Positions 2,565-17,933 of a stretch of DNA of 64,000 nucleotides are shown here, one piece after another (position 1 is the stretch's first letter; every line of letters starts with the position of its first letter). Both the position numbers and the translations under genes were made by a program. This stretch comes from an uncultured bacterium. GTDB taxonomy: Bacteria > Bacillota_I > Bacilli_A > RF39 > UBA660. Under the pieces are notes generated by a model. It made no database searches, had not been told where the DNA came from, and saw only the letters and a list, made by a program, of their open reading frames with translations. Location: positions 5,763-69,762 of the forward strand of contig CASEVQ010000002.1 in the NCBI GenBank assembly GCA_949291455.1. Reading direction: 5' to 3'.

Positions 2565-2593
2565 GAAGTACCTCCCCCTGAAGAAGGTACTTC
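2565..2593. terminator. hairpin (9-bp perfect stem gaagtacct/aggtacttc) carrying a CCCCCTGAAGAAGG loop, A-run upstream; possible terminator for minus-strand transcription
   Basis: The inverted repeat is read directly from the sequence. It contains a variant of the recurrent CCCCTGAAGG motif. Confidence 0.35.
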
Positions 2594-2794
2594 ACAAAAG
2601 AATAAAAAGGGGTTGGCTAGTGTGATACTAGCGACCAATTCGCCATTTTTCGAATTGGTGATTTCTATAATAATCGAAAGGAAAAGATTTGTCAAGAAGA
2701 ATATAATTAAATTTATATTATTTTAAAGTTAGTAAATTAAAATAGTAAATTCTCGATTAGTTGATTTAAGAGAATTTAATTTTATAATAAATAT

Positions 2795-2895: not shown

Positions 2896-4890
2896 ATGGA
2901 TAAGTTATCTAAAGTAAAAGGAATTGGTCCTAAAACAGAGCCTTTATTAAATAAAATAGGTATATTTACAATAGATGATTTAGTTACACATTATCCTTTT
3001 CGATATGATGTTTTAAAAAGAACAGATTTAAAAACTGTTACTGATTTAGAACAAAAAGTAGTAGTAGATGGAAAAGTAGAAAGTATTCCTTTAGTAATTA
3101 GATTTAAAGGTGGAACTAATAAATTAAATTTTCGTTTATCGACTGTAAATGGTATTGTTGGAGTATCAATTTTTGGAAGAGCATTTTTAAAACAAAGTTT
3201 ACCAATAGGAGAAAAAGTAATTGTTATTGGGAAATATGATCCAAATAAAAATATTGTAAATGCTTCAGATATAAAGTTTGGTAATTTAACAAATCAAGAG
3301 AGAATTGAATCTGTATATCATACTACAAGTGGTCTTACTCAAAAAGTTATTTCTAGTGCTATAAATAATGCTTTAGTTAGTTATGGAAATGAAATTGTAG
3401 ATAGTATACCTAAACACTTAATTGAAAAATATAATTTTTTAAATAAAAAGACAGCATTAAATATTGTCCATAATCCTCCTAATTACGATAAACTTAAAGA
3501 AGCTAGTATAAGACTTAAATATGAAGAATTATTTGAATTTATGTTTAAAATAAATTATTTACGTGCAGAAAATAATAAAGATAATATTGGTATTAAAAGA
3601 CACACAGAAAAGAAAATAGATACATTTATAAAAAAATTACCTTTTGAATTAACAGAAGATCAATCAAAGGCTTTAGAAGAAATTATAAATGATTTAAATA
3701 GTGAAAGAAGAATGAATCGTCTTTTACAAGGTGATGTTGGTAGTGGAAAAACAATCGTTGCTATTTTAGCAATGTATTATAATTTTCTTTGTGGTTATCA
3801 AAGTGCTTTGATGGCACCAACGGAAATATTAGCAACTCAGCATTATAATAATATTAAAGAGTTACTTGGAAAAGAAAAAATAAATATTGAATTATTAACT
3901 GGGTCAATTACAAAGAAAGAAAAACAAAGTATATATAATGAATTAAAAGAAGGAAAAGTAAATATAATTATTGGGACACATGCACTTATTCAAGAAGATG
4001 TAGAATATAATAATTTAGGACTAGTAGTGACTGATGAACAGCATAGATTTGGAGTTAATCAACGCTCTAATTTGAAAAATAAAGGTATAAAACCAGATGT
4101 TTTGTATATGAGTGCAACACCAATTCCTAGAACTTATGCTTTAACTATTTATGGTGATATGGATGTATCAATAATAAAACAAATGCCTAAAGGAAGAATA
4201 CCAGTTAAGACTAAAGTATTTACTACTAAAGAAATGAATGATGTTTACAATTTAATGAAAGAAGAATTAAAAGAAAGTCATCAAGTATATGTTATAGCGC
4301 CTTTAATAGAAGAAAATGATGATTTGGATTTAACTAATATATATACTTTACGTGATAAAATAAATTTGATTTTTGGTAATAAGTATAAAATTGACATTGT
4401 ACATGGTAAAATGAAAGCTAAAGAAAAAGAATTAATAATGGAAGAATTTAAACAAAATATTGTAAATATTTTGATAAGTACGACAGTAATAGAAGTAGGA
4501 GTAGATGTTCCTAATGCTACTATGATGGTTATTTTTGATGCTAATAGGTTTGGACTTTCTACTTTACATCAATTAAGAGGAAGAGTGGGAAGAAATTCTT
4601 TAGAATCTAAATGTTTATTAATAAGTGATTCTGATACTAAGAGATTAGAAATAATGGAAAATACAACTGATGGTTTTGTTATTAGCGAAGAAGATTTTAA
4701 ATTACGAGGATCAGGCGATTTATTTGGAACAAAACAAAGTGGGGATATGACTTTTAAAATGGCTAATTTAAAAAATGATTATAAGATATTAGTACAAGCA
4801 AAAATAGATTCTGATGACTATTTAAAAAATGAATGTTATGATAAAGAAGAATTAAAAAAGAGACTTATTGCTACAATAAAAATAGATTAA
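2896..4890 (+). CDS. recG: ATP-dependent DNA helicase RecG
   Basis: The 664-aa protein has an N-terminal wedge/OB region and helicase motifs GDVGSGKT (Walker A) and DEQHRFG (DEQH box). C-terminal helicase motifs are typical of RecG. Confidence 0.9.
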   Translation: MDKLSKVKGIGPKTEPLLNKIGIFTIDDLVTHYPFRYDVLKRTDLKTVTDLEQKVVVDGKVESIPLVIRFKGGTNKLNFRLSTVNGIVGVSIFGRAFLKQSLPIGEKVIVIGKYDPNKNIVNASDIKFGNLTNQERIESVYHTTSGLTQKVISSAINNALVSYGNEIVDSIPKHLIEKYNFLNKKTALNIVHNPPNYDKLKEASIRLKYEELFEFMFKINYLRAENNKDNIGIKRHTEKKIDTFIKKLPFELTEDQSKALEEIINDLNSERRMNRLLQGDVGSGKTIVAILAMYYNFLCGYQSALMAPTEILATQHYNNIKELLGKEKINIELLTGSITKKEKQSIYNELKEGKVNIIIGTHALIQEDVEYNNLGLVVTDEQHRFGVNQRSNLKNKGIKPDVLYMSATPIPRTYALTIYGDMDVSIIKQMPKGRIPVKTKVFTTKEMNDVYNLMKEELKESHQVYVIAPLIEENDDLDLTNIYTLRDKINLIFGNKYKIDIVHGKMKAKEKELIMEEFKQNIVNILISTTVIEVGVDVPNATMMVIFDANRFGLSTLHQLRGRVGRNSLESKCLLISDSDTKRLEIMENTTDGFVISEEDFKLRGSGDLFGTKQSGDMTFKMANLKNDYKILVQAKIDSDDYLKNECYDKEELKKRLIATIKID

Positions 4891-4914
4891 TTTGAAAAAT
4901 AAAAATAAATTCAA

Positions 4915-4943
4915 TTGACAATTTTTAAATAACATATTATGAT
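4915..4943 (+). promoter_or_regulatory. sigma70-like promoter TTGACA-17nt-TATGAT
   Basis: TTGACA at 4915-4920 and TATGAT at 4938-4943 are separated by a 17-nt spacer. No ORF lies downstream before the integrase on the other strand. Confidence 0.4.
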
Positions 4944-4949
4944 TAATAT

Positions 4950-5053
4950 GCATGATGGTAAAACATTGTGCACACTCTTACCGTCATATAATGTAAGAGT
5001 GTATTCAACCAAACCCCCTGAAGGAGCCGAAAGGCTCCGCTTTTGTTTATTTT
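4950..5053 (+). ncRNA. candidate ~100-nt small RNA (unclassified): 9-bp hairpin 4972-5002, CCCCCTGAAGG, then terminator hairpin ggagcc-gaaa-ggctcc plus U-run
   Basis: A promoter, two hairpins and an intrinsic terminator sit without any ORF directly beside the attL of the integrated element. No known RNA family was recognised. Confidence 0.25.
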
Positions 5054-5078
5054 ATAAGGATTTTAAGCCTTTAAAAAT

Positions 5079-5105
5079 ATTTTAGGTGCTATTTAGGTGC
5101 TAAAA
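5079..5105. repeat. 27-bp direct repeat ATTTTAGGTGCTATTTAGGTGCTAAAA (putative attL)
   Basis: It is identical to 13571-13597 and contains an internal tandem 11-mer TTTAGGTGCTA x2. Confidence 0.75.
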
Positions 5106-5153
5106 TACATAAAAAAATAATGGTAAGCGATTAAACTTACCATTATTTTACGT

Positions 5154-6365
5154 TTATAGACATATTTCTATATCATTTTTTTCATTAGTTATATTATCAT
5201 TATCAATAGTATTTTTTTCTTTTTCTCTTTCTCTTTCAGCTAGTAAAATACTATTGTTTCTATTTATGAGCTTAACTATATCTTCAAGTTTATTTTGATA
5301 CATATGAGAGTAGGTATTTAGTGTTTCATCAATTTTAGTATGACCTAAATATTTTGCCACTAGAGTAATACTAGCACCATAATTTATTAAGAAAGAAGCA
5401 CAGGAGTGTCTAAAGTCGTGTATTCTTATTTGCTTTACCTGTGCTAATTTACAATTTCTATTTTTTCTACTTCTAATAGAGTCTTTTGTAAGAGGTAAGT
5501 CATTACCAAAAACAAACCACTCTTGAGAAAAGTTTTTAAACTCTTTTTTATAATCGTATAACTTTTTTAAATCAGCTAGTAGTAAATCATTGATAGGTAA
5601 GTCACGATTACTATTTTGTGTTTTTAATGGACTTAATTTGTAGTTATCCATACTATAAATCGATGGTATTTGTTTATATATTCTCATTATCTTATTTTTA
5701 AAATCTATATCTTTCCATTGTAAGCCTCTTAATTCTCCTTTGCGAAGTCCCATATAATAAAGAGTTTCGAATAGAGATTTAAACATTATATCATCTTCAA
5801 CTGATATAAATTGATTAAACTCATCAATAGTAAAAAATAGCATTTCTTTTTTCAATTCATTAGGATTAGTAAAGTTAGTCATTTTATTATATACTGGAGT
5901 AAAATTAAAATCATACCATTTACTACCATAATTTAATATTGCTTTTATAAACTTAAATAAATCATTTTTATAAGAAGTAGCTAGAGGTAATTTATTAATT
6001 TCTTTCTTCCATAATTCAAAATGATTAATATTAAAATCCTTTAATTTTATATTATCGAAATACTGTAAATACTTAACTCTATCTCTATAAGTTTTTATTG
6101 TACTTTCTCTAACTTTATCACTTTGATAATTGTAAAAAGATAAATATAAATCTTTAAAAGTCATATCTTTATGATTTATATTCTGATCGAGCGATAAGAG
6201 GAACTGCCTTTCAGCTTCTTGTGCCTCTTTCTTCGTCATATATTTTCTTGAACGATATTTTTTATTTAGTCCATCTAATCCTTTATAATAAACTTGAAAA
6301 ATCCATTTTCTACCATCTTTAGTTTGTTCTTTAGGCTTTACTTGTAATACAGCTATAATAATCAC
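5154..6365 (-). CDS. tyrosine site-specific integrase
   Basis: The C-terminus HDFRHSCASFLINYGASITLVAKYLGHTKIDETLNTYSHMY gives the R..H.R.Y catalytic signature. There is an N-terminal SAM-like core-binding region. Confidence 0.85.
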   Translation of the reverse strand: MIIIAVLQVKPKEQTKDGRKWIFQVYYKGLDGLNKKYRSRKYMTKKEAQEAERQFLLSLDQNINHKDMTFKDLYLSFYNYQSDKVRESTIKTYRDRVKYLQYFDNIKLKDFNINHFELWKKEINKLPLATSYKNDLFKFIKAILNYGSKWYDFNFTPVYNKMTNFTNPNELKKEMLFFTIDEFNQFISVEDDIMFKSLFETLYYMGLRKGELRGLQWKDIDFKNKIMRIYKQIPSIYSMDNYKLSPLKTQNSNRDLPINDLLLADLKKLYDYKKEFKNFSQEWFVFGNDLPLTKDSIRSRKNRNCKLAQVKQIRIHDFRHSCASFLINYGASITLVAKYLGHTKIDETLNTYSHMYQNKLEDIVKLINRNNSILLAEREREKEKNTIDNDNITNEKNDIEICL

Positions 6366-6398
6366 GTCCTTTCTTTAAATCTTTTTATTTTAATATTT

Positions 6399-7838
6399 CT
6401 ATAAACCAATTTCATAATCATCTTTGTCTTTATCTTTAGCTTTTCTATTGTCATAATCATAGTAATCATAATTAATAGCATCAGCTAGATTTTCATAATC
6501 TTCAACATAATCTTTAGGCTCTCTATCTAGTAGCTTATCAATAGCCTTACACATTTTTTTAAATAGTTTTTTCCATTTGTTAACTTCAACTTCAAGTTTT
6601 TCTTTTAAATTATCAATACTATTATTTAAAATATTAACAATACCTTTTAATTTATTAATCTCTTTACTTTGTTCTTTAATAGTAGCCTTTTGCTCAGTAA
6701 TAATTTTATCTCGTTTAATAATTTCTTCATTGTTTTTAAAACTGGTATTTTCTTTAGATAATTTCATTATAGTTAAATCTTTGTTTTTAATTTCACTTTG
6801 CTGAAAGATATTAACTTGCTCTAAACCTTTAGAATATTCTACGATTTTTTGAACGTCATTAGAGTTATAACCAACAATAGTTTTTTTAGGATTTAATATA
6901 TCTTTATTAACGGCTTTATTGGACTCTATAAGGGCATTTTTAGAGTTTTCTATCACTTTTAAGGTATTTTCCTTTTCTTGATTTAAAAGCTCTAATTCAG
7001 CCTTATTTTCCTCTATTTGGAACTCTAATTTAGTCTTGTGTTCTACATTAGCTCCAATATTACCTCTATCTAAATTAAAACCTCGTTCTGTAATAAACTT
7101 ATGAAAAGAGTTTTGTAATTTAGCATAAGAGTTTTGAGCTCCTCGTTGTTTCCAAAACTGGTCGTTATTTAAAAAGTTACCTTTAACTTTCTCATAAACG
7201 ATTTTACCTTTTTCATCTCTTAATATTTTAGGAACTAGTGTAGTATTACCATTTTTATTTTTAACTTCTTCTTTAATGACGTTTCCATTTTTATCTTTGA
7301 CGTAACATTTTCTTTTTACTTCATTTACAACTGGTAGAAAATATGCTTGTAGGTGAGGAGTATCTTCATCATAATGTATTTGAGCTAATATAATATTTTC
7401 TTCTCCAACATAATCTTTAAGAAACTCCATACAAGAGTCAAAGAAATAACTAACAGTTTGTGGTATATCTTCTTTAGATTTTATATAAGGAATTTTTACA
7501 CTTTGTCCTTTTTTATTTCCTGTTTTATAAGTTCTACCACTATCTATAAACTTCATACCTAGAGCTTCAAAAAACTCTGTTCCACTTGTAAAGGTAATTC
7601 CATTTAATAGGTTAGTGGAAGCTTTATTTAGATATTCTATATTTCTTTTCTTTAAGGTTTGTTTTACTTCTTGATACAGGTTTCTTTCGCTCATAGATAT
7701 ATATTCTACATTGAACTTTCGTCTTTCAATATCATAATTACCTGTACCTTTTCTATCTTTCATTTCAATACCAATGTTATATAAATCTTTTTGTTTGAAC
7801 TTTGTTTCTACTCGTACTACTTGTTTTCCATCATACAA
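6399..7838 (-). CDS. Mob/Pre-family (MobV) relaxase
   Basis: HYDEDTPHLQAYFLPVV matches the HxDE..PH.H relaxase motif III. The long C-terminus is coiled-coil rich. Confidence 0.7.
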   Translation of the reverse strand: MYDGKQVVRVETKFKQKDLYNIGIEMKDRKGTGNYDIERRKFNVEYISMSERNLYQEVKQTLKKRNIEYLNKASTNLLNGITFTSGTEFFEALGMKFIDSGRTYKTGNKKGQSVKIPYIKSKEDIPQTVSYFFDSCMEFLKDYVGEENIILAQIHYDEDTPHLQAYFLPVVNEVKRKCYVKDKNGNVIKEEVKNKNGNTTLVPKILRDEKGKIVYEKVKGNFLNNDQFWKQRGAQNSYAKLQNSFHKFITERGFNLDRGNIGANVEHKTKLEFQIEENKAELELLNQEKENTLKVIENSKNALIESNKAVNKDILNPKKTIVGYNSNDVQKIVEYSKGLEQVNIFQQSEIKNKDLTIMKLSKENTSFKNNEEIIKRDKIITEQKATIKEQSKEINKLKGIVNILNNSIDNLKEKLEVEVNKWKKLFKKMCKAIDKLLDREPKDYVEDYENLADAINYDYYDYDNRKAKDKDKDDYEIGL

Positions 7839-8163
7839 TAAATGTTCCTCCTTTCTCTTAAAAGGTCATTTACGACCTATCTCACTAGGGCATAGCCCAC
7901 TCGTGAGTTTAGGGAGTTCCCTAAAAACCCCTGTCTCGTTCTTCGCAGAATACCTAAACTTATGTAAAGGTATTCGCTACAAACAAGATTAAAGAATAAC
8001 TATCTACAAGATACTTATTCTTTAAATAATTTTTTAAAGTAACTTTAAAAAATGTAAAAATATTCACTATCGCTACTTTCATTGAAACTCACGTTTCAGC
8101 AAAACGTACCTCGTTCATTTTTTACTAACTTTTTAGAAAAAAGCTACAAAAACTTTATGAAAA

Positions 8164-9117
8164 CTATTCGTTTTCATAAGTAGGTTCTTTATATATTGCA
8201 GTATATGTTCTTTCATTAGAAGTTCTTTTTTGCTCTATATAAAGTCCTTCTTTTTCTAAATTATCAATATTATTATTTAATAATTTACCAAATACAGATG
8301 GGGTAATAGGTAAGTTCAACTTACTTGTTATGTCCGAAGCAGTAAAGGTAAATTCTTTTTGTTTTATTGCATAATTTAGAAAGGTTAATATATTGTAATT
8401 TAAGTCCTCACTTTCAACTTCTGATAACTCAAATATTAGATTATCATTTCTTTTTAGAACTAGATCTAATCCCTCATAATCTCTACTTTCATAAGTGAAT
8501 ATAATTTTATTTTTAATATTAATATCTTGCTTTAAGGTTATCTTCCCATCAACAGAGCCATCAATAGCAGTGCTACCAAGAGAAGTATTGTTTTTATTTA
8601 AGTGATGAATAAGCAAGATAGTAAAATTATATTTTTTACAAATCTCTCTAAACTTTGGAATTACATATTGTCCCATATCTTGATAATTATTTAAGTCATA
8701 GCCATTATTCATATCAATACCACTAAACATATCAATGATTACAAATCTACCATTGTAGTCAGTAGCAAAGGTTTGAAAATCTAATTGTAAGTCCATAAGG
8801 TTTAGTTTTCTTTCGTTAGGACTTTGTTCTATTAAAGCAAAATTACTATCATCAAATTGTAGTTGCATTTTATCAATTCGACTCATAATTTGCGTGTAAT
8901 CCATTTCTGTGCTAATATATAAGACAGGAGATGGAGTAGTTCTAAATCCTAGAAATGGTTGTCCTGTTGCAATAGAGTTGGCAAGTTGTAGTGCTAATAG
9001 AGACTTACCAACTTTAGGTCTTGCAACAAGACAATATAATCCTTTGGACTTCATTAAGTTATCAACGATGAAGTCTTTTTTTGTGAAACTTTTTCTCATC
9101 TCACTTATAGTTTTCAT
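8164..9117 (-). CDS. RecA-fold replication ATPase (AAA_25/RepA-like)
   Basis: It has Walker A LVARPKVGKSLLALQLA and Walker B-like FVIIDMFSGID, followed by LLIHHLNKN. This is typical of plasmid or ICE RepA/primase-associated helicase loaders. Confidence 0.6.
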   Translation of the reverse strand: MKTISEMRKSFTKKDFIVDNLMKSKGLYCLVARPKVGKSLLALQLANSIATGQPFLGFRTTPSPVLYISTEMDYTQIMSRIDKMQLQFDDSNFALIEQSPNERKLNLMDLQLDFQTFATDYNGRFVIIDMFSGIDMNNGYDLNNYQDMGQYVIPKFREICKKYNFTILLIHHLNKNNTSLGSTAIDGSVDGKITLKQDINIKNKIIFTYESRDYEGLDLVLKRNDNLIFELSEVESEDLNYNILTFLNYAIKQKEFTFTASDITSKLNLPITPSVFGKLLNNNIDNLEKEGLYIEQKRTSNERTYTAIYKEPTYENE

Positions 9118-9132
9118 TTCTTACACCTCTCA

Positions 9133-9372
9133 TCAGTTAACAACCTCTTTTGCCATCTTTTGAAGATATGCAATATTGATTTTTAAATAACTTACAACTT
9201 CGTTCATTGGAAGTAGTTTACTAGGTAATTGATAACCTTTATTTTCTAGTGAGGTTTTAATCTCTTTTTTTAATTTAATAGCATTATTTTTACCTAGCCC
9301 TGTAAGCTTTCTTAAATCTTCTAAATCACACCATTGTTTTGATATTAAAGTTAATGTTTCTTTTGCAGTCAT
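9133..9372 (-). CDS. DUF3173-like small protein (found beside integrases in streptococcal-type IMEs)
   Basis: The 79-aa protein has the motif LISKQWCDLEDLRKLTGLG. It sits in the position between rep and int usually occupied by an excisionase-like gene. Confidence 0.45.
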   Translation of the reverse strand: MTAKETLTLISKQWCDLEDLRKLTGLGKNNAIKLKKEIKTSLENKGYQLPSKLLPMNEVVSYLKINIAYLQKMAKEVVN

Positions 9373-9606
9373 TAATTCGCCTCTCTTTCTGTTTTTATAG
9401 TGATGGTTTTAGTGTTACCAACAACTCCCTTTTAGGATGTATATATAGTTATTAGCCATATATCTAAGGAGGATTTTAGATTATCCACAACTCCCGTACC
9501 AATAGGGTTAAGCCTTGTACTTATTTAACGAGTCGGCATATCGGCGATTTCCAACTCTATGTAATTGCCAAAGAGCAATTAATAAGTTGTAAAATGTTTT
9601 AAAATG

Positions 9607-9660
9607 CAACTTATAAGTTGAATATACACTATAAAAACATTGTTGTCAACCTAAAAGTTG
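9607..9660. promoter_or_regulatory. two 14-bp inverted repeats CAACTTATAAGTTG (9607-9620) and CAACCTAAAAGTTG (9647-9660), candidate operators
   Basis: One is a perfect palindrome and the other a near-perfect one. Both lie in the divergent intergenic region between DUF3173 and the XRE gene. Confidence 0.45.
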
Positions 9661-9741
9661 CAAAACAATCTATTTTTAAACAAAAAGGTTGAAATAATGT
9701 TTAAAATATGTTATATTTATACACAAGAAAGGAGTTTTACT

Positions 9742-10245
9742 ATGCAGGAAACAGTAGGACAAATGATAGCAAGAGCGAGAGAAGAAAAAGGTTTGTCTAA
9801 AAGAGAACTATCAAGGATGGCTAATATTAGTGATACAGAACTTGCTAGAATTGAGTCTGGAGAAAGAGAAATTCCTAACCCTAAAACTTTAAGAAAAATC
9901 AGTAAATATATAGGAGTTAATTATAATGATTTAATGTATGCAGCAGGACTTGGTTTTCAAGTTAGTCCTTTAAATCCATTTTTAAAAAAATATTACTCTA
10001 ATTTAAAAGGAGAAGAATTAGAAGAAGCATTAGTTAATACATTAGGTAGTATTGAAAACTGGGAAGCTTTAGTAAAGTCTTTAAAAAGTAGATTAGAAGA
10101 TAATACTTTGATGGACGAAGAAAAAGAAATGATACAACAAACAATAGAAGATACAGAATATCAAATTAATTCGGCTAATGAAATTGTTAAATTATTACAT
10201 AGTGCAAAAACAAAGGAGAGGATCGATAATGAAAGAAAAGATTAA
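9742..10245 (+). CDS. XRE-family HTH transcriptional regulator
   Basis: The start is moved to the ATG at 9742, which follows the RBS aaggag. The HTH is QMIARAREEKGLSKRELSRMANISDTELARIESGER. Confidence 0.7.
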   Translation: MQETVGQMIARAREEKGLSKRELSRMANISDTELARIESGEREIPNPKTLRKISKYIGVNYNDLMYAAGLGFQVSPLNPFLKKYYSNLKGEELEEALVNTLGSIENWEALVKSLKSRLEDNTLMDEEKEMIQQTIEDTEYQINSANEIVKLLHSAKTKERIDNERKD

Positions 10246-10702
10246 ATACTTTAATGTCGTTCAAATTATAGGTAATATTTTATTATTAATATCAGTCATA
10301 GGTAGTTTTGTAGCGACTGGAGAAATACAGAACACAATGATAGGTCTATTTTGGTTTGCATTAACAATTAATATGTTAGGAATTACTTATTTCTTTGCTA
10401 CTTGGACAAAGGGTGGTATAAATGCAGATGTAAAAAAATCAAAACAGATATTTAATGATTTAGACAACGTTGCAGTTACTCTAATTGTTGGTTATATGTT
10501 AGCTTACTTAATAATTATGTTTATAACTAATATGTCTAATGATATTAGAAATAATTTCTATTTAATTGGTGGTTCTTACATACTTACAGTTTTTGTAGAA
10601 GTTATATTATTTACAGTAGTAGAAAAGGCATATAAAGAAACAATAAAATTAGTGAAAAAAAATAATATAGGTAAAAATGACAGGAGTGACAGAAAAAAAT
10701 AG
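10229..10702 (+). CDS. small integral membrane protein
   Basis: The ATG at 10229 follows the RBS aaggagagg. There are four predicted hydrophobic helices. Confidence 0.45.
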   Translation: MKEKIKYFNVVQIIGNILLLISVIGSFVATGEIQNTMIGLFWFALTINMLGITYFFATWTKGGINADVKKSKQIFNDLDNVAVTLIVGYMLAYLIIMFITNMSNDIRNNFYLIGGSYILTVFVEVILFTVVEKAYKETIKLVKKNNIGKNDRSDRKK

Positions 10703-10784
10703 GAGATACCCTCCCAAATGTGCTGTCATAGTGTCATTTGTAATATCAAAAATAAACACCATAAGCTATGAACTTGTGGTGTTT

Positions 10785-11099
10785 TTATATTGAAATTATT
10801 TCAAGAGGGTTTTCATTTGTTATTTTTAGTTTATATTTATTTTCTAATAATTGCTTTATTTTATCGTAATCACAGTCGGCTACATAAAATTGTGATAAAT
10901 CATTTAAAGCAGAGAAAACAATATCATCCATTTGCTCTCTAAAAAGAAAATTGTGTTTTATTCTTTCAGCAATATAATAACTAACATATTCCTCTAAAAT
11001 ATTATTATCTTTAAAATGTTTAGTAAAAGCATTATCAAAGGTTTCGACTAATTTATCAAATTCTTCATTAGTTACTTGGTTTATATCATCTCTTATCAT
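10785..11099 (-). CDS. hypothetical protein
   Basis: This is a 104-aa ORF with no recognisable motif. Confidence 0.4.
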   Translation of the reverse strand: MIRDDINQVTNEEFDKLVETFDNAFTKHFKDNNILEEYVSYYIAERIKHNFLFREQMDDIVFSALNDLSQFYVADCDYDKIKQLLENKYKLKITNENPLEIISI

Positions 11100-11119
11100 T
11101 TGTTGTTCCTCCTAAAAAA

Positions 11120-11410
11120 TTAATTAGATTTATTTTTCATATTTTGTATAAAATCATCAATTAATTGTTCTAACTTTCTTACATCTTCTTTTGTTACTAG
11201 ATAATTGTAATCTTTTTTTGATTTTAATACGTTATAGATTATTTCTTCATAGTCTATACTGGTATTTTGTTTTTTTAAAACTAACTTATTGTTATTTAAA
11301 GTAATATTAATTAAATCATAATCTTTTATATTTAATATTTTTCTATACTCTCTAGGAATAACAATTCTTCCTAGATTATCAATTTTTCTAGTAAATCCAA
11401 CATTTTCCAT
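11120..11410 (-). CDS. AbrB/MazE/SpoVT-family DNA-binding protein
   Basis: The N-terminal GFTRKIDNLGRIVIPREYRK is a swapped-hairpin AbrB-type motif. Confidence 0.6.
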   Translation of the reverse strand: MENVGFTRKIDNLGRIVIPREYRKILNIKDYDLINITLNNNKLVLKKQNTSIDYEEIIYNVLKSKKDYNYLVTKEDVRKLEQLIDDFIQNMKNKSN

Positions 11411-11436
11411 TTTCTACACCCTCTACGTTATTAATT

Positions 11437-11479
11437 TTATGCGAATATCGCATAAAAGTCAATATGCGACAAACGCATA
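11437..11479. promoter_or_regulatory. operator palindromes TTATGCGA-ata-TCGCATAA (11437-11455) and TATGCG-acaaa-CGCATA (11463-11479)
   Basis: The inverted repeats lie in the divergent promoter region between the abrB-like gene and the XRE gene. Confidence 0.5.
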
Positions 11480-11504
11480 ATATAAAATGTTCTTGGTGGT
11501 AGAT

Positions 11505-11705
11505 ATGGAACGATTAAGAGATTTAAGAGAAGATAAAGATTTAACACAACAAGAAGTAGCTGATATGTTAGGTTGTTCTCAAACTACATACTCAAGATAC
11601 GAAACTGGCGACTTAAATGTACCTATAGATATATTAAAAAAGTTAGCAAAGTTTTATAAAGTTAGTATTGATTATATTGTAGGAATAACTAATAAAAAGA
11701 ATTGA
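11505..11705 (+). CDS. small XRE-family HTH regulator (paralog 1)
   Basis: The start is set at the ATG at 11505 (MERLRDLREDKDLTQQEVADMLGCSQTTYSRYETGD), following the RBS ggtgg. Confidence 0.7.
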   Translation: MERLRDLREDKDLTQQEVADMLGCSQTTYSRYETGDLNVPIDILKKLAKFYKVSIDYIVGITNKKN

Positions 11706-11709
11706 TTAA

Positions 11710-11730
11710 TCTATGCGAATATCGCATAGA
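11710..11730. promoter_or_regulatory. operator palindrome TCTATGCGA-ata-TCGCATAGA
   Basis: It has 9-bp perfect arms and the same core as 11437-11455. It lies upstream of the second XRE paralog. Confidence 0.5.
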
Positions 11731-11787
11731 TTTTAACTTATATAACTGGCTTAATCTAAAATTACTTTAGAGAAAGTAGATGTTAAT

Positions 11788-12018
11788 ATGGAAAGAATTA
11801 GAAACTTAAGAGAAGATAAAGATTTAAGTCAAAATGAAATTGCTAAAATATTAAATTGCTCGCAAACAACTTATTCAAGATATGAAACAGGTGATCTAAA
11901 TATACCAGTTGACTCTTTAATTAAGTTAGCAATATATTTTAATACTAGCATTGATTATTTAACTGGACTTACTGATGAAAAAAAGCCTTATAAAAGGTCA
12001 ATAAGAACAGATAAATAA
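11788..12018 (+). CDS. small XRE-family HTH regulator (paralog 2)
   Basis: MERIRNLREDKDLSQNEIAKILNCSQTTYSRYETGD is about 65% identical to paralog 1. Confidence 0.7.
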   Translation: MERIRNLREDKDLSQNEIAKILNCSQTTYSRYETGDLNIPVDSLIKLAIYFNTSIDYLTGLTDEKKPYKRSIRTDK

Positions 12019-12126
12019 ATTATTATATTAAAGAGTAAGTAGTAGGTTGTAATCTACTATTTTTATTTTGTATTTAATGATATAATTATCTAAATAATAA
12101 TTAATTTGTAGTATCGGAGGGTAATA

Positions 12127-12861
12127 ATGAAAAGGGTAATAGTTGGACTTTTAATAATAGCTATAGTAACAGGTTGTAGTTCAAAAAATAATTTTAATAT
12201 CGAATATGAAAATCAAAATGAATGTAATAAACCTAAATTGCTTTTATCAAAAGATGGTAGAAACATTTATACTTATTGTATTGAAAATATAACTATTGAA
12301 ATGAAAAATAGAAAAGCTGAATTAAAAAGTTATATTGAAGATAATAGCAATGCTATAAACGAAATAATAGACATATTAAAACTAGAAGATATTTTAAAGG
12401 ATGGCGGTACTCAAATCTATAGGGGAGATATAACTTTAATCAAATGTAATACATTGGATGGTAATAAAGATATTTATATTGGAAATAATAATATGAAGCA
12501 TAAACAAAACTTTTGTAAAGATAACAATTATACTTTTATAAGAACTTATACGGTAAAAGATATATCAAAATATACTGAACAACAATATGATGAAGATGGG
12601 AATCCAGTTTCTTATGGAAATTCTTTTAAGGTAGAACTAAATGAATTCCAAGGAGAAACAAAAACAGTTATCATAAATAATTTATGGGATGTAACATTAG
12701 AAAAAAATAAAACTTATGAATTTGAGTTTATGATTAATGAAGATGTGACTAATGTAAAAGATGAACTAGAAGATATTTTTAAAAACTCAACTATTGTAGG
12801 TGTTAAAGAAACAACTAAAACAGGTTTAGAACAAATACAAGAGCCAATGGTCAAACAATAA
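12127..12861 (+). CDS. lipoprotein (cargo)
   Basis: The signal peptide MKRVIVGLLIIAIVTGCSS contains a lipobox. Confidence 0.5.
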   Translation: MKRVIVGLLIIAIVTGCSSKNNFNIEYENQNECNKPKLLLSKDGRNIYTYCIENITIEMKNRKAELKSYIEDNSNAINEIIDILKLEDILKDGGTQIYRGDITLIKCNTLDGNKDIYIGNNNMKHKQNFCKDNNYTFIRTYTVKDISKYTEQQYDEDGNPVSYGNSFKVELNEFQGETKTVIINNLWDVTLEKNKTYEFEFMINEDVTNVKDELEDIFKNSTIVGVKETTKTGLEQIQEPMVKQ

Positions 12862-12883
12862 TTATAAATTAGGAGGAATGATT

Positions 12884-13336
12884 ATGAAAAAGACAATGCT
12901 AGCTATTCTACTATGTGGAGTTATGTTATTAGGAGTTACTGGGTGTGGAACTACAAATGAGTTTGATATAGGGAATGTATCAAATCTTGAAATTAATAAT
13001 AACAATAATGTTACATTATCTGTTAAGGATGGGACATTAGAAAACACAAGTGCTACATTAATTCTTGAAAATAACACCGATAAATTATTGCGTTATGATG
13101 AGTATTATAAAATGGAAATAAAAAAAGATAATGAATGGCACACAATTAATGTTGAATTATATTTTAATGATCCACTTTGGGGAGTAAATCAAAACTCTAA
13201 AGAAGAAATTGAATTAAACTGGGAACATGGATATGGCAAATTAGCACCCGGAGAATATAGAATAATCAAAGAAGTTTATTTTGAAAATGAAGAAGAACAA
13301 GAATTTAACATATCGGCAGAGTTTACTATTAAATAA
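12884..13336 (+). CDS. lipoprotein (cargo)
   Basis: The ATG at 12884 lies 7 nt after the RBS aggagg. The lipobox is MKKTMLAILLCGVMLLGVTGCGT. Confidence 0.5.
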   Translation: MKKTMLAILLCGVMLLGVTGCGTTNEFDIGNVSNLEINNNNNVTLSVKDGTLENTSATLILENNTDKLLRYDEYYKMEIKKDNEWHTINVELYFNDPLWGVNQNSKEEIELNWEHGYGKLAPGEYRIIKEVYFENEEEQEFNISAEFTIK

Positions 13337-13370
13337 TAAATTACAATTCATTGAAAGGAGTAAGTAAACA

Positions 13371-13571
13371 GTGAGAAAAACTTTATCAGTTATAGGAGTT
13401 GCAATACTATCATTACTAATAACATTTTTTATATTTGAAATAATGAGTTGGTATGATTTTGGTAGTCCTATAACAAATGTAGTATTATTTAGAATAATTA
13501 TATGTTTTGTTATAATATTCATCATTTTACTAGGATTAATGTTAATAATAAAAAGACAAAGGAATAAATAA
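13371..13571 (+). CDS. small membrane protein
   Basis: It has a GTG start after the RBS aaggag. The 66-aa product has two hydrophobic helices. Confidence 0.35.
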   Translation: MRKTLSVIGVAILSLLITFFIFEIMSWYDFGSPITNVVLFRIIICFVIIFIILLGLMLIIKRQRNK

Positions 13572-13597
13572 TTTTAGGTGCTATTTAGGTGCTAAAA
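13571..13597. repeat. 27-bp direct repeat (putative attR), identical to 5079-5105
   Basis: The match to 5079-5105 is exact. Confidence 0.75.
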
Positions 13598-13712
13598 AGT
13601 TAGAAAACTTTTAAAATTATTTAATTTATGTTGGTATAAAATAAACAAAAAAAGTTAAAAAATAAGGGAAAAATGAAGCTGTAAAATAAAAAGCGACTAA
13701 ACAACTTCGCCC

Positions 13713-13808
13713 CCTGAAGGGCATCGTCGAGAGACGGTGTCCACTTTTTTTATGCGTGTTTGCGTTATAATACACAAAAGTACACAACTTTTATAAATGA
13801 ATAAGTTT
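13713..13808 (+). repeat. ~96-bp direct repeat copy A (GC-rich terminator hairpin + T7 + TTATAAT promoter-like segment)
   Basis: It is about 93% identical to 24438-24533. The hairpin gggcatcgtc-gaga-gacggtgtcc shows a compensatory G.U to A-U change between the two copies. Confidence 0.8.
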
Positions 13809-13846
13809 TTCGTGTTATAATAACAAATTAGAAATGAGTTGATGTT

Positions 13847-15199
13847 GTGTATAAAATTGTCTTACTAATTGATGTAAAAAATAGTAATTTTATTGTTGAA
13901 AAAAGAAACAATAATTGGTTTTTGCCAACTTTATCAAATGTCGAGAATATAGATAAAATACATGAGAGAATCATGAATAAATATAACTTTGATGTTAAAA
14001 ATATCAAGTTGATTATTAAAGAAAAAAATGTTTTGTTTGTAAGATGTAATTTGCAAAGTGAGAACTTTGATAAAAAAAAATTTAAGATAGAAGTGCTTAA
14101 TGAAATTGCTTCTATAATAAATAACAAAAAACAAAAGGAATTGATAACGAATCTTTTAGTTAGGATTGGCTTTGAAATGCTTAACGATTCTTTTTGGCTT
14201 GGTATTATTTTGACAACGGAAGATAATTTGAAAGACATGACATTAAAGGTTCTTTTATCTGATTTTTTAGTTTTCTTTTCATCTATTTTTTGTGAAGAAT
14301 TATTAACATATAAATTTGGTGGGATAAAAAATGATTTAAATATTACTGAAAAACAGATAAAGAAAATTAGAAATTCATATTTAAAAAGTTGCCCATTATT
14401 TGACTCGGATAAAAGTAAGAAAATAATTGATGAAATGGGTATTGATTTAAATTCGACAATATATGATTGTGTTCTATTTTTTGTTAATAAGGATTTGATT
14501 GATATTAACTTTAGAACATGGCAAAATCGTGAACAAGAAATGTACGAAATACTTAATGGTATAGTGTTATCACCAAGAAGATGGATTAAAAATTGTTATC
14601 CCCAATTTGATTCCTTTTTTGAAGAAATAAGAAAATCATATGTAGATTATTTTATAGAAAGGTTTAATAAAATTGAGGTGGAACCTAAATCATATTCAAC
14701 ACATAAGTTATTTAGAAATAGTAAACTTTCAGACAATGAAAAAACTTATATATTACAGAGAATAGGATTGTTGAAAACAACTTTATTAATATCAAAAACT
14801 TTTGGCCATGGTAATTTTATTTCAACAAAAATTGAAAGTGAATTTAAACTAAGTTTTGATAATTATTTATTAAAAGTTAAAGCAACTATTATTGAGATGA
14901 TATGGAATGATTATAATCAAAATAAAGAGAAATTGTTATTTTTAAAAGATGTTCTTAATAATTATCCTAAAGATATTTCTGAAGATTTTTTCAAAATTAA
15001 TAGAAAATGCCGTGATAATATTCATTATGGTTATTATCACGATATTACTCAAGGAGAGATTGCTATTTTAGACAAGTATCAAGAAATGTATATTAGTTAT
15101 GTTATAAAAGAATTTGATAAAGAAATAGAATTTAAATGTGATTTGAGTTATATAATAGGATTATCACTTGCTAAATTACAATATTGGGCATCACATTAA
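13847..15199 (+). CDS. hypothetical protein (450 aa)
   Basis: The ORF has a GTG start. There is a weak N-terminal resemblance to a NUDIX-like W.LP. segment but no confident domain. Confidence 0.45.
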   Translation: MYKIVLLIDVKNSNFIVEKRNNNWFLPTLSNVENIDKIHERIMNKYNFDVKNIKLIIKEKNVLFVRCNLQSENFDKKKFKIEVLNEIASIINNKKQKELITNLLVRIGFEMLNDSFWLGIILTTEDNLKDMTLKVLLSDFLVFFSSIFCEELLTYKFGGIKNDLNITEKQIKKIRNSYLKSCPLFDSDKSKKIIDEMGIDLNSTIYDCVLFFVNKDLIDINFRTWQNREQEMYEILNGIVLSPRRWIKNCYPQFDSFFEEIRKSYVDYFIERFNKIEVEPKSYSTHKLFRNSKLSDNEKTYILQRIGLLKTTLLISKTFGHGNFISTKIESEFKLSFDNYLLKVKATIIEMIWNDYNQNKEKLLFLKDVLNNYPKDISEDFFKINRKCRDNIHYGYYHDITQGEIAILDKYQEMYISYVIKEFDKEIEFKCDLSYIIGLSLAKLQYWASH

Positions 15200-15240
15200 A
15201 AAAGTATGTTATAATAGTTAGCCAAGGGAAGTGACTATCT

Positions 15241-15510
15241 ATGATTATTTATACTTGTAGAACTAAAAAGATTCTAACAACACCAGACTTTATATATAAT
15301 ATTTCAAATGAATATAAAATGTTTGCATACAATTCAGATTTAATGAGTAATTGTGGATGTATAGAGAAACAAGATTTAGTCACAAAGGATGTTTATTATA
15401 CTTATAATACATTGGTTAGTTTTAACAATTCATTGGATAATGGAAACAATAATGCTTTTGATTTATTAAAGGATTATTTAGAAAATCATCCAGTGTTAAA
15501 GTCAATATAA
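15241..15510 (+). CDS. hypothetical protein, probably truncated by the IS insertion
   Basis: Its stop codon at 15508-15510 lies inside the left inverted repeat of the IS21-family element. Confidence 0.35.
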   Translation: MIIYTCRTKKILTTPDFIYNISNEYKMFAYNSDLMSNCGCIEKQDLVTKDVYYTYNTLVSFNNSLDNGNNNAFDLLKDYLENHPVLKSI

Positions 15511-15553
15511 AAATGTGCAAAAAGTTGAAAATAAAAATGTACAAAAAATTTAC

Positions 15554-16324
15554 TTAACTTTGCATGGTTTCAGAGACATCTGAATCCATTTTTAACTTAT
15601 CTTTTAAACGATATGAATTACCATTTATATTAATAATATATGAATGATGTAATAATCTATCTAAAATTGCATTAGCTAATGTTACATCATTAAATATTTC
15701 ATGCCATTTTCCAAATGGTTTATTTGTCGTTATTATAGTTGAATGTTTTTCATATCGCTTATTAATTAATTGAAATAACATATTCGCTCCATCCAAATCC
15801 ATTGGTAAAAATCCAACTTCATCTATTATCAACAATTTATATCTTGCATAATGGTTCAATCTATTTATAAATCTATTTTCAGATTGGGCTTTTTTTAAAT
15901 TAGCTATTAAATCATTACAATTTATAAAGTAAGTTGAATTCCTATTTTGGGCTGCTTCTATCCCTATGGATGTTGCTAAATGTGTTTTTCCCACTCCTGG
16001 TGAACCTACAAAAATAATGTTTTCATTATTTTCGATAAATCTTAAATTTTTAAAATCTAATATTTGTTCCTTATTTATTGTTGGCTGAAAAGAAAAATCA
16101 AAGTCATCAAATGTTTTCAAAAAAGGAAAATCAGCAGTTCTTACACAACCATAAATTGCTTTTTCGTTTCTTAATTCTATTTCTAGATTAGTTAATTCAT
16201 ATAATGCTTCTACAACATCTTTTTCTTTATTATTAATTAAATCTATATATTTATCTAAGTTTTGTTTTATCTTTTCTAATTGTAGTATTTCTAAATTATT
16301 TAGTAATTTTACATAGTTATTCAT
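15554..16324 (-). CDS. istB: IS21-family helper ATPase IstB
   Basis: It has Walker A GSPGVGKTHLATSIG and Walker B LLIIDEVGF, with the typical IstB C-terminus. Confidence 0.85.
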   Translation of the reverse strand: MNNYVKLLNNLEILQLEKIKQNLDKYIDLINNKEKDVVEALYELTNLEIELRNEKAIYGCVRTADFPFLKTFDDFDFSFQPTINKEQILDFKNLRFIENNENIIFVGSPGVGKTHLATSIGIEAAQNRNSTYFINCNDLIANLKKAQSENRFINRLNHYARYKLLIIDEVGFLPMDLDGANMLFQLINKRYEKHSTIITTNKPFGKWHEIFNDVTLANAILDRLLHHSYIININGNSYRLKDKLKMDSDVSETMQS

Positions 16325-16327
16325 CTT

Positions 16328-17535: not shown

Positions 17536-17840
17536 GTTATACCTCCGTTTTAAACTAAAGTATAACAAAAAGAATGTACAAAAATGTTCATTTTTATATT
17601 ACATTTTTTGTACATTTTTATATTATCATTAACATTACGGCATTAATAATGATGATTTATTCAATTTATGCTATAATTCAAGAAAAACAAAAGTCAAAAT
17701 ATTATAAAAAGACTATATTATATGAAACAAATTATGATAAATATTTTACAATGGTAAGAAAGCAAAAAATAGTGGTTTTAAAAAAGAGACTACAACTACC
17801 GTTTTTAAAATTTTTTAGTTAAAATAAAGAGGTTAATAAG

Positions 17841-17933
17841 ATGGAAAGAATACAATTGCAGTATATTCTTTTTGGTATGTGTACTATATCAGGTCTTGTC
17901 TTTATAATATATCTTTTAAAAAATAAAGATTAG
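17841..17933 (+). CDS. possible 30-aa hydrophobic peptide MERIQLQYILFGMCTISGLVFIIYLLKNKD
   Basis: The RBS aaagagg lies 8 nt upstream of the ATG. It is below the ORF-track size cutoff and is speculative. Confidence 0.2.
   Translation: MERIQLQYILFGMCTISGLVFIIYLLKNKD

What the first reader, a model, noticed from the sequence alone, without database searches (positions are those of the whole stretch)
5079..13597. Integrative mobilizable element bounded by perfect 27-bp direct repeats that themselves contain a tandem 11-mer
ATTTTAGGTGCTATTTAGGTGCTAAAA occurs exactly twice, at 5079-5105 and 13571-13597. These copies flank int, mob (MobV), a RepA-like ATPase, DUF3173, XRE/AbrB regulators and lipoprotein cargo. 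That is the gene set of a streptococcal-type IME that relies on a co-resident conjugative element for transfer. The repeat's internal structure (TTTAGGTGCTA x2) is unusual for an att core and may reflect the integrase binding/crossover arrangement. The element sits directly downstream of recG, next to a promoter-hairpin-terminator unit with no ORF.
Basis: partly seen in the sequence, partly recalled or inferred. Interest (0 to 1): 0.55.

Follow-up and report, generated by a model that had tools for sequence, protein, structure and literature searches.

The report
Mobilizable island inserted in small-RNA gene
The 27-bp repeats are real, but they are most likely integrase "arm" binding sites lying inside an 8.7-kb mobilizable island; the island's true ends are 11-bp repeats (CCCCCTGAAGG) at the 3' end of a conserved small-RNA gene, a site that many different mobile elements in uncultured gut Bacilli use.

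Summary
ATTTTAGGTGCTATTTAGGTGCTAAAA occurs exactly twice (5079-5105, 13571-13597), and the two copies bracket int, a MobV relaxase, an AAA_25 RepA-like ATPase, XRE and AbrB regulators and lipoproteins. DUF3173 was not found.

The 27-mers are not the element ends or the crossover site. Comparison with 58 related loci puts every homology breakpoint at the 11-mer CCCCCTGAAGG (5014-5024 and 13710-13720). These loci include other strains of the same species and an empty/occupied pair in a related species. The mobile unit is therefore about 8,696 bp.

The "promoter-hairpin-terminator unit with no ORF" is the target. It is a conserved, covarying small RNA of about 96 nt, absent from Rfam. The element replaces this RNA's terminator with its own copy.

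The tandem 11-mers lie 56 bp inside the left core and 115 bp inside the right core. Every other integrase lineage using this site has its own tandem 9-12-mer at the same positions. This integrase has an arm-DNA-binding domain. Arm-type Int sites of a lambda-like attP are the best reading (inferred, not tested).

The int-mob-rep module is 97-99% identical in species whose recG is about 70% identical, which indicates recent horizontal transfer. The site is a hotspot with tandem accretion. This is a new member of a known kind.

The parts
4915..4943 (+). Promoter of the target small RNA ('sRNA A'): TTGACA, 17-nt spacer, TATGAT. Chromosomal.
   Evidence: 11 of 12 consensus matches. The same TTGAC-N17-TATGAT arrangement is conserved in 15 loci.
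4950..5013 (+). Chromosomal 5' body of sRNA A: two hairpins plus the single-stranded stretch AUUCAACCAAA.
   Evidence: RNAalifold on 13 sequences predicts 19 pairs, and 10 of them show compensatory double changes. CAACC-RAA-CCCCCTGAAG is invariant. No Rfam family matches.
5014..5024 (+). attL core CCCCCTGAAGG, the true left end of the element. It is also the C-rich single-stranded segment of sRNA A.
   Evidence: It is the only sequence shared by attL and attR flanks. Homology to other species and strains begins here. An empty/occupied pair in a related species breaks at this motif.
5023..5048 (+). Element-borne replacement terminator for sRNA A (GGAGCC-GAAA-GGCTCC plus T-run).
   Evidence: Called as a terminator. 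It travels with the element at 97-99% identity into unrelated left flanks, including a protein-coding gene in L006. Other elements bring different hairpins to the same place.
5079..5105 (+). Left copy of the 27-bp repeat, containing the tandem TTTAGGTGCTA x2 at 5081-5102. Inferred P' arm-type integrase binding sites, 56 bp inside the core.
   Evidence: The position is constant at +58 to +93 from the core in all element types, each with its own tandem motif.
5114..5149 (-). Terminator hairpin of int.
   Evidence: 15-pair stem plus T-run.
5154..6365 (-). Tyrosine integrase, 403 aa, with an N-terminal arm-DNA-binding domain.
   Evidence: Phage_integrase 1.1e-26; Arm-DNA-bind_4 5.6e-08, residues 20-63. 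The HDFRH...GH...NTYSH catalytic motifs are visible in the translation. The closest annotated relatives are Clostridioides and Bacillus phage integrases at about 33% identity.
6399..7838 (-). MobV-family relaxase, 479 aa.
   Evidence: Pfam Mob_Pre scores 36.7 bits against a cut-off of 25.5. NCBIfam MobV scores 78 bits over the whole profile, below its cut-off of 100. An HYDEDTPH motif is visible in the translation. The closest plasmid MobV proteins are 22-27% identical.
7839..8163 (-). Intergenic region upstream of mob with several inverted repeats. Candidate oriT (inferred).
   Evidence: Eight inverted-repeat pairs, for example 7989-8025, 7908-7925 and 7948-7975. No nick site was identified.
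8164..9117 (-). AAA_25 / DnaB-like (RepA-like) ATPase, 317 aa.
   Evidence: AAA_25 1.9e-28. PHROG matches to primase/helicase families.
9133..9372 (-). 79-aa conserved small protein ('p79'). Possible excisionase or regulator. It is not DUF3173.
   Evidence: No Pfam or NCBIfam hit. 231 homologue clusters, none with a Pfam domain. The AlphaFold model is all-helical with pLDDT 62 and has no Foldseek PDB match below E=1. Homologues sit beside rep in all related elements and beside a cro-like XRE gene in the prophage-like locus L033; a weaker homologue is also found in prophage L043.
9658..10245 (+). XRE-family HTH regulator, divergent from p79/rep. The likely true start is the ATG at 9743.
   Evidence: HTH_19 8.3e-15, HTH_3 3.4e-13. 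A Shine-Dalgarno sequence and ATG are seen.
10178..13571 (.). Accessory and cargo genes: a membrane protein (10178-10702 +), a 104-aa protein (10785-11099 -), an AbrB/MazE-fold protein (11120-11410 -), two XRE proteins (11487-11705 and 11788-12018, both +), two lipoproteins (12127-12861 and 12878-13336, both +) and a 66-aa membrane peptide (13371-13571 +).
   Evidence: MazE_antitoxin 6.6e-09 and HTH_3. LPAM_1 lipobox and Big_14. The cargo right of about 12892 differs between otherwise 97% identical copies.
13571..13597 (+). Right copy of the 27-bp repeat, containing the tandem TTTAGGTGCTA x2 at 13573-13594. Inferred P arm-type integrase binding sites, 115 bp inside the right core.
   Evidence: Tandem motifs lie at -129 to -139 from the right core in all element types. 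Element E2 of L008 has the same TAGGTACCCA pair at both of its ends.
13598..13709 (+). Element-borne 'R segment' (P arm spacer). It contains a possible extended -10 (TGgTATAAA) and a Shine-Dalgarno sequence followed by ATG AAG CTG TAA.
   Evidence: About 97% identical in 9 other species' loci, with homology stopping at 13720. The promoter was not called by the consensus scan, so transcription is unproven.
13710..13720 (+). attR core CCCCCTGAAGG, the true right end of the element.
   Evidence: In a same-species strain carrying a different element (L027), identity with the window resumes exactly here.
13719..13742 (+). Resident terminator hairpin (GGGCATCGTC-GAGA-GACGGTGTCC plus T-run). It is displaced from sRNA A by the insertion and now follows the R segment.
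   Evidence: Called as a terminator. It resembles the native sRNA A terminator at the empty site of a related species, GAGACTAGTC-GAGA-GACTAGTCTC.

Best explanation
Window 5014/5025 to 13709/13720 is an integrative mobilizable element of about 8.7 kb. It carries a tyrosine integrase, a MobV relaxase, an AAA_25 Rep-like ATPase, regulators and lipoprotein cargo.

The element is inserted by site-specific recombination into the 11-bp sequence CCCCCTGAAGG. That sequence lies between the body and the terminator of a conserved small RNA gene of about 96 nt, downstream of recG. The element supplies a substitute terminator, so the small RNA stays complete. The resident terminator ends up beyond the right end.

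The two 27-bp repeats are subterminal. Each holds two 11-bp sites spaced one helical turn apart. They are most likely the arm-type sites bound by the integrase's N-terminal domain. In the excised circle they would flank the core at about -137 and +67, giving a lambda-like attP of about 230 bp.

Transfer would need a helper conjugative element, because the element has a relaxase but no mating-pore genes.

Shown here: the boundaries, the target RNA, the recent inter-species spread, and the use of this site by many integrase lineages with tandem accretion.

Inferred: integrase binding to the 11-mers, excision, the position of oriT, and mobilization.
For: Boundaries:
1. BLAST breakpoints with loci from other species fall at 5013/5014 and 13720.
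2. L027 has an identical right-flank gene and so is the same species, but carries a different element. Its identity with the window resumes at gCCCCCTGAAGG.
3. L032 is the same species (98.8% identity) and diverges right after the core.
4. In one related species, identical sequence runs up to CCCCCTGAAG and then splits into at least 6 variants.
5. An empty/occupied pair exists. L054 and L057 are empty. L055 and L056 carry a 1,738-bp insert bounded by CCCCCTGAAGAGAC.
6. L006 has the same IME left end inside a surface-protein coding sequence, sharing only the 11-mer with the window's site.

The 27-mers are internal:
- 0 of 25 genomic occurrences of the 22-mer are in an unoccupied configuration.

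Arm-site reading:
- The integrase has an Arm-DNA-bind_4 domain.
- Each integrase lineage has its own tandem 9-12-mer at the same distances on both arms: TTTAGGTGCTA, TTTAGGTAGCA, TTTAGGTGGCA, TTTAGGTACGA, TTAGGTACCCA, TACCCATCA, TACCTACCCA, AGATACCAA, and TTAGATACT x3.

Target RNA:
- Promoter and terminator are called, and the hairpins covary.

Mobility:
- int/mob/rep DNA is 97-99% identical where recG is 69-75% identical.

IME definition:
- Integrase plus relaxase, flanking direct repeats, and no T4SS genes (definition in PMC5357655).
Against: - No empty site and no excised circle was found for this particular element in its own species. The one metagenome scan for the predicted attB returned only a chance hit in a 65% GC contig.
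- Binding of the integrase to the 11-mers is untested.
- The NCBIfam MobV score (78 bits) is below its cut-off of 100.
- No oriT nick site and no recognisable excisionase was identified. The p79 model is poor.
- No helper conjugative element was identified among the window ORFs scanned, which did not cover the whole window.
Confidence: 0.8

Rival explanations
1. One reading: the 27-bp repeats are attL and attR, meaning the crossover site. The element is 5079-13597, and the tandem 11-mer is an unusual att core.
For: The repeat is perfect and occurs only twice. It sits 49 bp from the int stop codon.
Against: The flanking 54-bp and 112-bp segments between the 27-mers and CCCCCTGAAGG move with the element. 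They are 97-99% identical in species whose recG is about 70% identical, and they change whenever the integrase type changes. No unoccupied 27-mer site exists among 25 genomic occurrences. L006, L027, L032 and the empty/occupied pair L054/L055 all break at the 11-mer.
Confidence: 0.03
2. The boundaries are as in the best explanation, but the tandem 11-mers bind something other than the integrase arm domain. Candidates are an excisionase or directionality factor, the XRE regulators, or the Rep-like ATPase (iterons).
For: No binding data exist. p79 and three XRE proteins have no assigned sites.
Against: The repeats are present on both arms, next to the int end. They also occur in prophage-like relatives that have a different replication module (L033 with Phage_rep_org_N, and L043), so they track int rather than rep. 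Excisionase sites are classically on one arm only (general knowledge of lambda-type systems). The integrase carries an arm-binding domain.
Confidence: 0.1
3. The element is not conjugatively mobilized. Instead it is a phage satellite (PICI-like), or a now-immobile island that merely carries a relaxase gene.
For: The int / Rep-ATPase / small protein / divergent XRE backbone resembles that of satellites. L027 has the same backbone without any relaxase, plus defence cargo. Prophages use the same site with related int and p79 genes.
Against: A full-length MobV-type relaxase with the HxDExxPH motif is conserved at 99% protein identity in copies from several other species' MAGs. No terS, capsid or other packaging genes were detected. 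The very recent inter-species spread argues against immobility.
Confidence: 0.07

Closest known systems
Integrative and mobilizable elements (IMEs) with tyrosine integrases that insert into the 3' end of tRNA or housekeeping genes (reviews PMC5704250 and PMC5357655; for example IMESag-rpsI, NBU1, SGI1)
   Same: Integrase plus a single relaxase and no mating pore. Site-specific insertion at the 3' end of a conserved gene, with the element restoring the gene's end. Frequent tandem accretion with decayed, int-less relatives (CIMEs), as the review describes and as seen here in L008, L019, L032, L055 and the window's own second island.
   Different: The target is a small regulatory-type RNA gene not in Rfam, rather than a tRNA or protein gene. 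What is replaced is only its intrinsic terminator. The combination of tyrosine integrase with MobV as sole relaxase is not among the ten streptococcal IME classes. The hosts are uncultured gut Bacilli with about 25% GC.
Lambda-type heterobivalent tyrosine integrases with arm-type sites (lambda, L5, HP1, Tn916 DR2 repeats). This comparison rests on general knowledge, not on a test run here.
   Same: An N-terminal arm-binding domain plus a C-terminal catalytic domain. Short direct repeats in tandem on both sides of the core, roughly 55-140 bp away, giving an attP of about 230 bp. A short core identity with attB (11 bp).
   Different: There are only two sites per arm and they are exact copies of each other, which is what produced the perfect 27-bp repeat. 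Binding, the bending factor and the directionality factor are all unknown.
pMV158-type MobV relaxases of small mobilizable plasmids
   Same: Mob_Pre domain and HxDExxPH motif. The plasmid hits are annotated as MobV relaxases.
   Different: Only 22-27% identity over about 60% of the protein. It is chromosomally integrated, and oriT was not identified.

Membership tests
IME (operational definition of PMC5357655: delimited by direct repeats, at least one complete integrase, at least one complete relaxase, no VirB4 or other T4SS genes) | Flanking direct repeats generated by site-specific integration | tested here: met
   11-bp CCCCCTGAAGG at 5014-5024 and 13710-13720. Its status as the breakpoint is shown. 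The 27-bp repeats are not the delimiting repeats.
IME (operational definition of PMC5357655) | Complete integrase gene | tested here: met
   403-aa ORF, Phage_integrase 1.1e-26, with catalytic HxxR and Y motifs present.
IME (operational definition of PMC5357655) | Complete relaxase gene | tested here: met
   479-aa ORF. Pfam Mob_Pre is above the gathering score. NCBIfam MobV aligns over the full profile but scores below its cut-off.
IME (operational definition of PMC5357655) | No VirB4, coupling protein or other T4SS genes | tested here: met
   None of the 14 ORFs between the cores has such a domain.
IME (functional sense) | Excision to a circle and mobilization in trans by a helper conjugative element | not testable with these tools
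   The only support is indirect. The int/mob/rep module is 97-99% identical in MAGs whose recG is 69-75% identical. No circular contig was found.
Lambda-type (arm-binding) tyrosine integrase system | N-terminal arm-DNA-binding domain on the integrase | tested here: met
   Arm-DNA-bind_4, E 5.6e-08, residues 20-63.
Lambda-type (arm-binding) tyrosine integrase system | Repeated arm-type sites on both sides of the core in attP, distinct in sequence from the core | tested here: met
   TTTAGGTGCTA x2 at +67 and -137 from the core. Equivalent lineage-specific tandem repeats are present in all other elements at this site.
Lambda-type (arm-binding) tyrosine integrase system | Integrase N-terminal domain actually binds those repeats | not testable with these tools
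   Needs EMSA or footprinting.
   In that survey MobV alone goes with serine integrases (Class_6), and with tyrosine integrases only together with MobT (Class_10). Here a tyrosine integrase occurs with MobV alone.
   No DUF3173 match for any ORF, including p79 at E<=1.
Phage-inducible chromosomal island (satellite) | Packaging or capsid-redirection genes (terS, cpm-like, and similar) | tested here: not met
   No such Pfam or PHROG matches.

The most novel reading that the evidence does not exclude
The invariant C-rich stretch CCCCCUGAAGG is the functional seed of an undescribed small RNA, possibly anti-Shine-Dalgarno. Because it cannot drift, at least nine integrase lineages (IMEs, prophages, defence islands) have converged on it as a shared attB.

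The elements may not be neutral passengers. Each swaps the RNA's terminator. Some carry their own promoter-like R segment, so that a second transcript ending in the same seed may be made after integration. Integration could therefore retune the host small-RNA regulon.

A second conserved small RNA on the other side of recG has a terminator loop complementary to this seed and might act as its partner or sponge.
Probability: 0.12. Interest if true: 0.65.

Novelty: new member of a known kind. Interest (0 to 1): 0.4.

Why it matters
The result corrects the element's borders by 65 bp on the left and 123 bp on the right. That changes the predicted junctions for any excision or empty-site PCR:
- attP: ...AACAACTTCG-CCCCCTGAAGG-AGCCGAAAGG...
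- attB: ...TTCAACCAAA-CCCCCTGAAGG-GCATCGTCGAG...

It gives a clean sequence-level example of how arm-type integrase sites can be mistaken for att repeats.

It also uncovers an uncatalogued small RNA whose 3' end is a highly polymorphic integration hotspot in uncultured gut Bacilli. In a single species at least six different occupants were seen, carrying restriction-modification, Abi and other defence cargo. A nearly identical mobilizable element has recently spread across several species.

None of this is outside known biology of IMEs and lambda-type integrases.

Tried and rejected
1. Metagenome scan for the predicted empty site of the window's own species (AACCCCCTGAAGGGCATCGTCG). It returned one hit, in a 60-68% GC contig, which is clearly chance.
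2. Exact-protein look-up of the window's RecG found nothing. The look-up of Int gave only a 3.2-kb contig with the same junction.
3. Rfam at gathering score on the whole window, and at E-value threshold on 4850-5150, 2500-2900 and 13560-13850, gave no credible family for either small RNA or for the R segment. No tRNA or tmRNA is present.
4. Search for a circular copy. The 8,667-bp contig L044 looked promising by length but is an integrated attL in a tandem array, with cargo between the arm sites and int.
5. p79 as excisionase or DUF3173. There are no family hits. The AlphaFold model has pLDDT 62, and the Foldseek PDB search gave nothing below E=1, only weak HTH-like neighbours. This remains inconclusive.
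6. IMG/VR scan for the 22-mer found nothing.
7. Literature search for the two motifs gave only chance matches in unrelated papers.
8. L036/L041 as an empty site. This is plausible, with no arm repeats and no second core within 7.7 kb, but there is no matching occupied strain with the same right flank, so it was not used as proof.
9. An R-segment promoter. An extended -10-like TGgTATAAA is visible, but the consensus scan did not call it, and R segments of other lineages show no common promoter.

Full report
**1. The observation**

The 27-mer ATTTTAGGTGCTATTTAGGTGCTAAAA occurs exactly twice, at 5079-5105 and 13571-13597. None is expected by chance, and no further copy appears with up to three mismatches. 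It contains TTTAGGTGCTA twice in tandem.

Between the two copies lie these genes:
- A tyrosine integrase (5154-6365, minus strand) with Phage_integrase and Arm-DNA-bind_4 domains.
- A MobV/Mob_Pre relaxase (6399-7838, minus strand).
- An AAA_25 RepA-like ATPase (8164-9117, minus strand).
- A 79-aa protein with no family match.
- Three XRE proteins and an AbrB/MazE-fold protein.
- Two lipobox proteins.

recG ends at 4890. DUF3173 was not found. GC content is about 25% throughout, so composition does not mark the element.

**2. Where the element really ends**

A scan of one genome per species for the 22-mer gave 25 loci. All are gut MAGs labelled uncultured Bacilli, Tenericutes or Mycoplasmatota, or Candidatus Onthousia or Faecimonas. 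Every occurrence has one of two layouts. Either a chromosomal-looking left side is followed by the int end, or a cargo end is followed by a conserved right side.

BLAST of the window against these loci shows homology that repeatedly begins at 5013/5014 and stops at 13720. Those positions hold the 11-mer CCCCCTGAAGG, at 5014-5024 and 13710-13720. With up to one mismatch, 0.09 copies are expected and 4 are seen.

Six independent comparisons place the recombination breakpoint at this 11-mer:
- **L027.** This strain has a right-flank gene identical to the window's, so it is the same species. It carries a different element (int, AAA_25, an R-M system, YobI-ATPase, TnpV). Its identity with the window resumes exactly at gCCCCCTGAAGG.
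- **L032.** This is the same species, 98.8% identical across recG. It diverges directly after the core and holds a 4.1-kb int-less AbiE/helicase island ending at a second core.
- **One related species.** Contigs encoding an identical RecG protein (P0097) are identical up to ...CAACCAAAACCCCCTGAAG. They then split into at least six variants.
- **Another related species.** L054 and L057 are empty. L055 and L056 carry a 1,738-bp insert bounded by CCCCCTGAAGAGAC. The three-way alignment shows the classical attB/attL/attR pattern.
- **L006.** The window-type element's left end, 99% identical from 5013 onward, abuts the coding sequence of a large glycine-rich surface protein. It shares only the 11-mer with the window's site.
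- **The flanking segments.** The 54-bp and 112-bp stretches between the cores and the 27-mers are 97-99% identical in MAGs whose recG DNA is only 69-75% identical to the window's. They therefore travel with the element.

The mobile unit is thus 5025-13720 (equivalently 5014-13709), which is 8,696 bp.

**3. The target**

It has a near-consensus promoter at 4915-4943, with 11 of 12 matches. It has two hairpins, then an invariant single-stranded AUUCAACC-RAA-CCCCCUGAAG, then a terminator.

Across 13 sequences, 10 of 19 predicted pairs show compensatory double changes. It matches nothing in Rfam 15.

The terminator now attached to it (5023-5038) belongs to the element. Each different element brings a different hairpin to this position. 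The resident hairpin (13719-13742) sits beyond attR and resembles the native terminator seen at the empty site of the related species. This parallels elements that insert into the 3' end of tRNA or housekeeping genes and restore the gene's end (PMC5704250).

**4. What the 27-bp repeats are**

They lie inside the element, 56 bp from the left core and 115 bp from the right core. Every other element at this site has its own tandem 9-12-mer at the same distances: +58 to +93 after a left core, and -129 to -139 before a right core.

The motifs seen are:
- TTTAGGTAGCA
- TTTAGGTGGCA / TTTGGGTGGCA
- TTTAGGTACGA
- TTTAGGTACCCA / TTTAGGTACTCA
- TTAGGTACCCAA (present at both ends of element E2 in L008)
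- TACCCATCA
- TACCTACCCA
- AGATACCAA
- TTAGATACT x3 (in an IMG/VR prophage)

The repeats track the integrase lineage, whose identity to the window's Int ranges from 43% to 84%. They do not track the replication module.

The integrase has an N-terminal arm-DNA-binding domain. The best reading is that the 11-mers are arm-type integrase sites of a lambda-like attP of about 230 bp. The comparison with lambda and Tn916 rests on general knowledge, and binding itself was not tested. The perfect 27-bp identity arises because two identical sites, plus a few A/T flanking bases, are present on each arm.

**5. Is it an IME, and is it active?**

It meets the operational definition used in PMC5357655: flanking direct repeats, a complete integrase, a complete relaxase and no T4SS genes. 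It does not match any of that paper's streptococcal classes, because there a tyrosine integrase never occurs with MobV as sole relaxase.

The relaxase is distant from characterised plasmid MobV proteins, at 22-27% identity. The integrase is about 33% identical to Clostridioides and Bacillus phage integrases.

Recent transfer is strongly implied. The int, mob and rep DNA is 97-99% identical in L009, L011, L012, L017, L020, L023 and L025, while recG is 69-76% identical.

Four things remain unproven. They are excision, oriT (several inverted repeats lie upstream of mob), the directionality factor, and the helper element. The p79 analyses were inconclusive.

**6. Context: a hotspot with accretion**

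Tandem arrays and decayed int-less remnants are common at this site. Examples are:
- L008, with three elements in a row.
- L007 and L013.
- L019, which has an inverted int fragment.
- L032 and L055.

These come, and they match the accretion and CIME picture in PMC5704250.

In the window itself, 24424-24533 is a 90% copy of 13710-13820 with a degenerate core (caCCaTGAAGG). Hence 13721-24444 looks like a second, int-less island in tandem. That island holds a 450-aa protein, an IS21 copy, a radical-SAM protein and a UvrD/GajB-like helicase.

**7. Verdict**

The element is a new member of a known kind (IME). Its borders are corrected, and the repeats are re-assigned from att core to arm-type sites. 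The added value is the uncatalogued small-RNA target and the hotspot it forms.

Noticed in passing
window 2565-2695, minus strand: A second conserved ORF-less unit lies upstream of recG. It has a promoter TTGACA-17-TATTAT (2695-2667), a body of about 100 nt (CACCAAUUCG...CGAAUUGGUCGCUAGUAUCACACUAGCCAACCCCUUUUUAUUC) and a terminator hairpin (2593-2565). The stem of that hairpin covaries between species. Its loop (UCUUCAGGGGG here, CCUUCAGGGGGU elsewhere) is complementary to the CCCCCUGAAGG of sRNA A. It may be a partner or sponge RNA. There is no Rfam match.
   Followed up: partly
window 13721-24444: A probable second, int-less island lies in tandem with the IME. It is bounded on the right by a 90% copy (24424-24533) of 13710-13820 with a degenerate core caCCaTGAAGG. 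It contains a 450-aa and an 89-aa protein of unknown function, an IS21-family element (istB intact at 15554-16324; istA split into 16328-16711 and 16810-17568), a radical-SAM protein with weak viperin-like similarity (18492-20093) and a UvrD/GajB-like helicase (20694-22772).
   Followed up: partly
window 45027-45037: Another core-like sequence, GCCCCTGAAGG, lies in an intergenic region after a 1,211-aa Upx-like protein and a type I R-M system (hsdM-like 33768-36821, hsdR 36805-39951). It could be a further att remnant bounding a defence island.
   Followed up: no
L006 7829-7839 (contig CASDWO010000045.1): The same IME is inserted at a secondary site inside the coding sequence of a glycine-rich surface protein of more than 2,044 aa (minus strand...PSGGAGG...). 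The gene is disrupted. The same MAG also has the sRNA A junction (L024).
   Followed up: yes
window about 5055-5065 and 13662-13672; the equivalent arm spacers in L005, L008, L013, L027, L033, L037, L038 and L043: A TATAAGG(G/A)-like motif recurs between the core and the arm repeats on both arms, across integrase lineages that otherwise share no spacer sequence. It may be a site for a host bending protein or the directionality factor. No statistical test was done.
   Followed up: no
window 13664-13686: The conserved R segment contains AAGGGAAAA followed by ATG AAG CTG TAA, a three-codon mini-ORF just upstream of the right core. Its meaning is unknown. It is conserved at about 97% in other copies, with AAGTTG in most of them.
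   Followed up: no
L059 4796-4900: One strain has a hybrid arrangement: the native terminator stem of sRNA A is followed by the element-type spacer and arm repeats. This suggests an exchange downstream of the usual core, or gene conversion between terminators.
   Followed up: no
L027 1-9863: In the same species and at the same site, an alternative element has the int / AAA_25 / 78-aa / XRE backbone but no relaxase. It carries a Type II R-M system (DNA_methylase plus RE_Eco47II), ASCH, a 1,130-aa YobI-ATPase and TnpV. The backbone therefore also exists in a non-IME, defence-island form.
   Followed up: partly
window 35194-35204, minus strand: A single exact copy of the arm 11-mer TTTAGGTGCTA lies inside the hsdM-like gene. 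It is isolated and not tandem, so it is most likely chance.
   Followed up: yes
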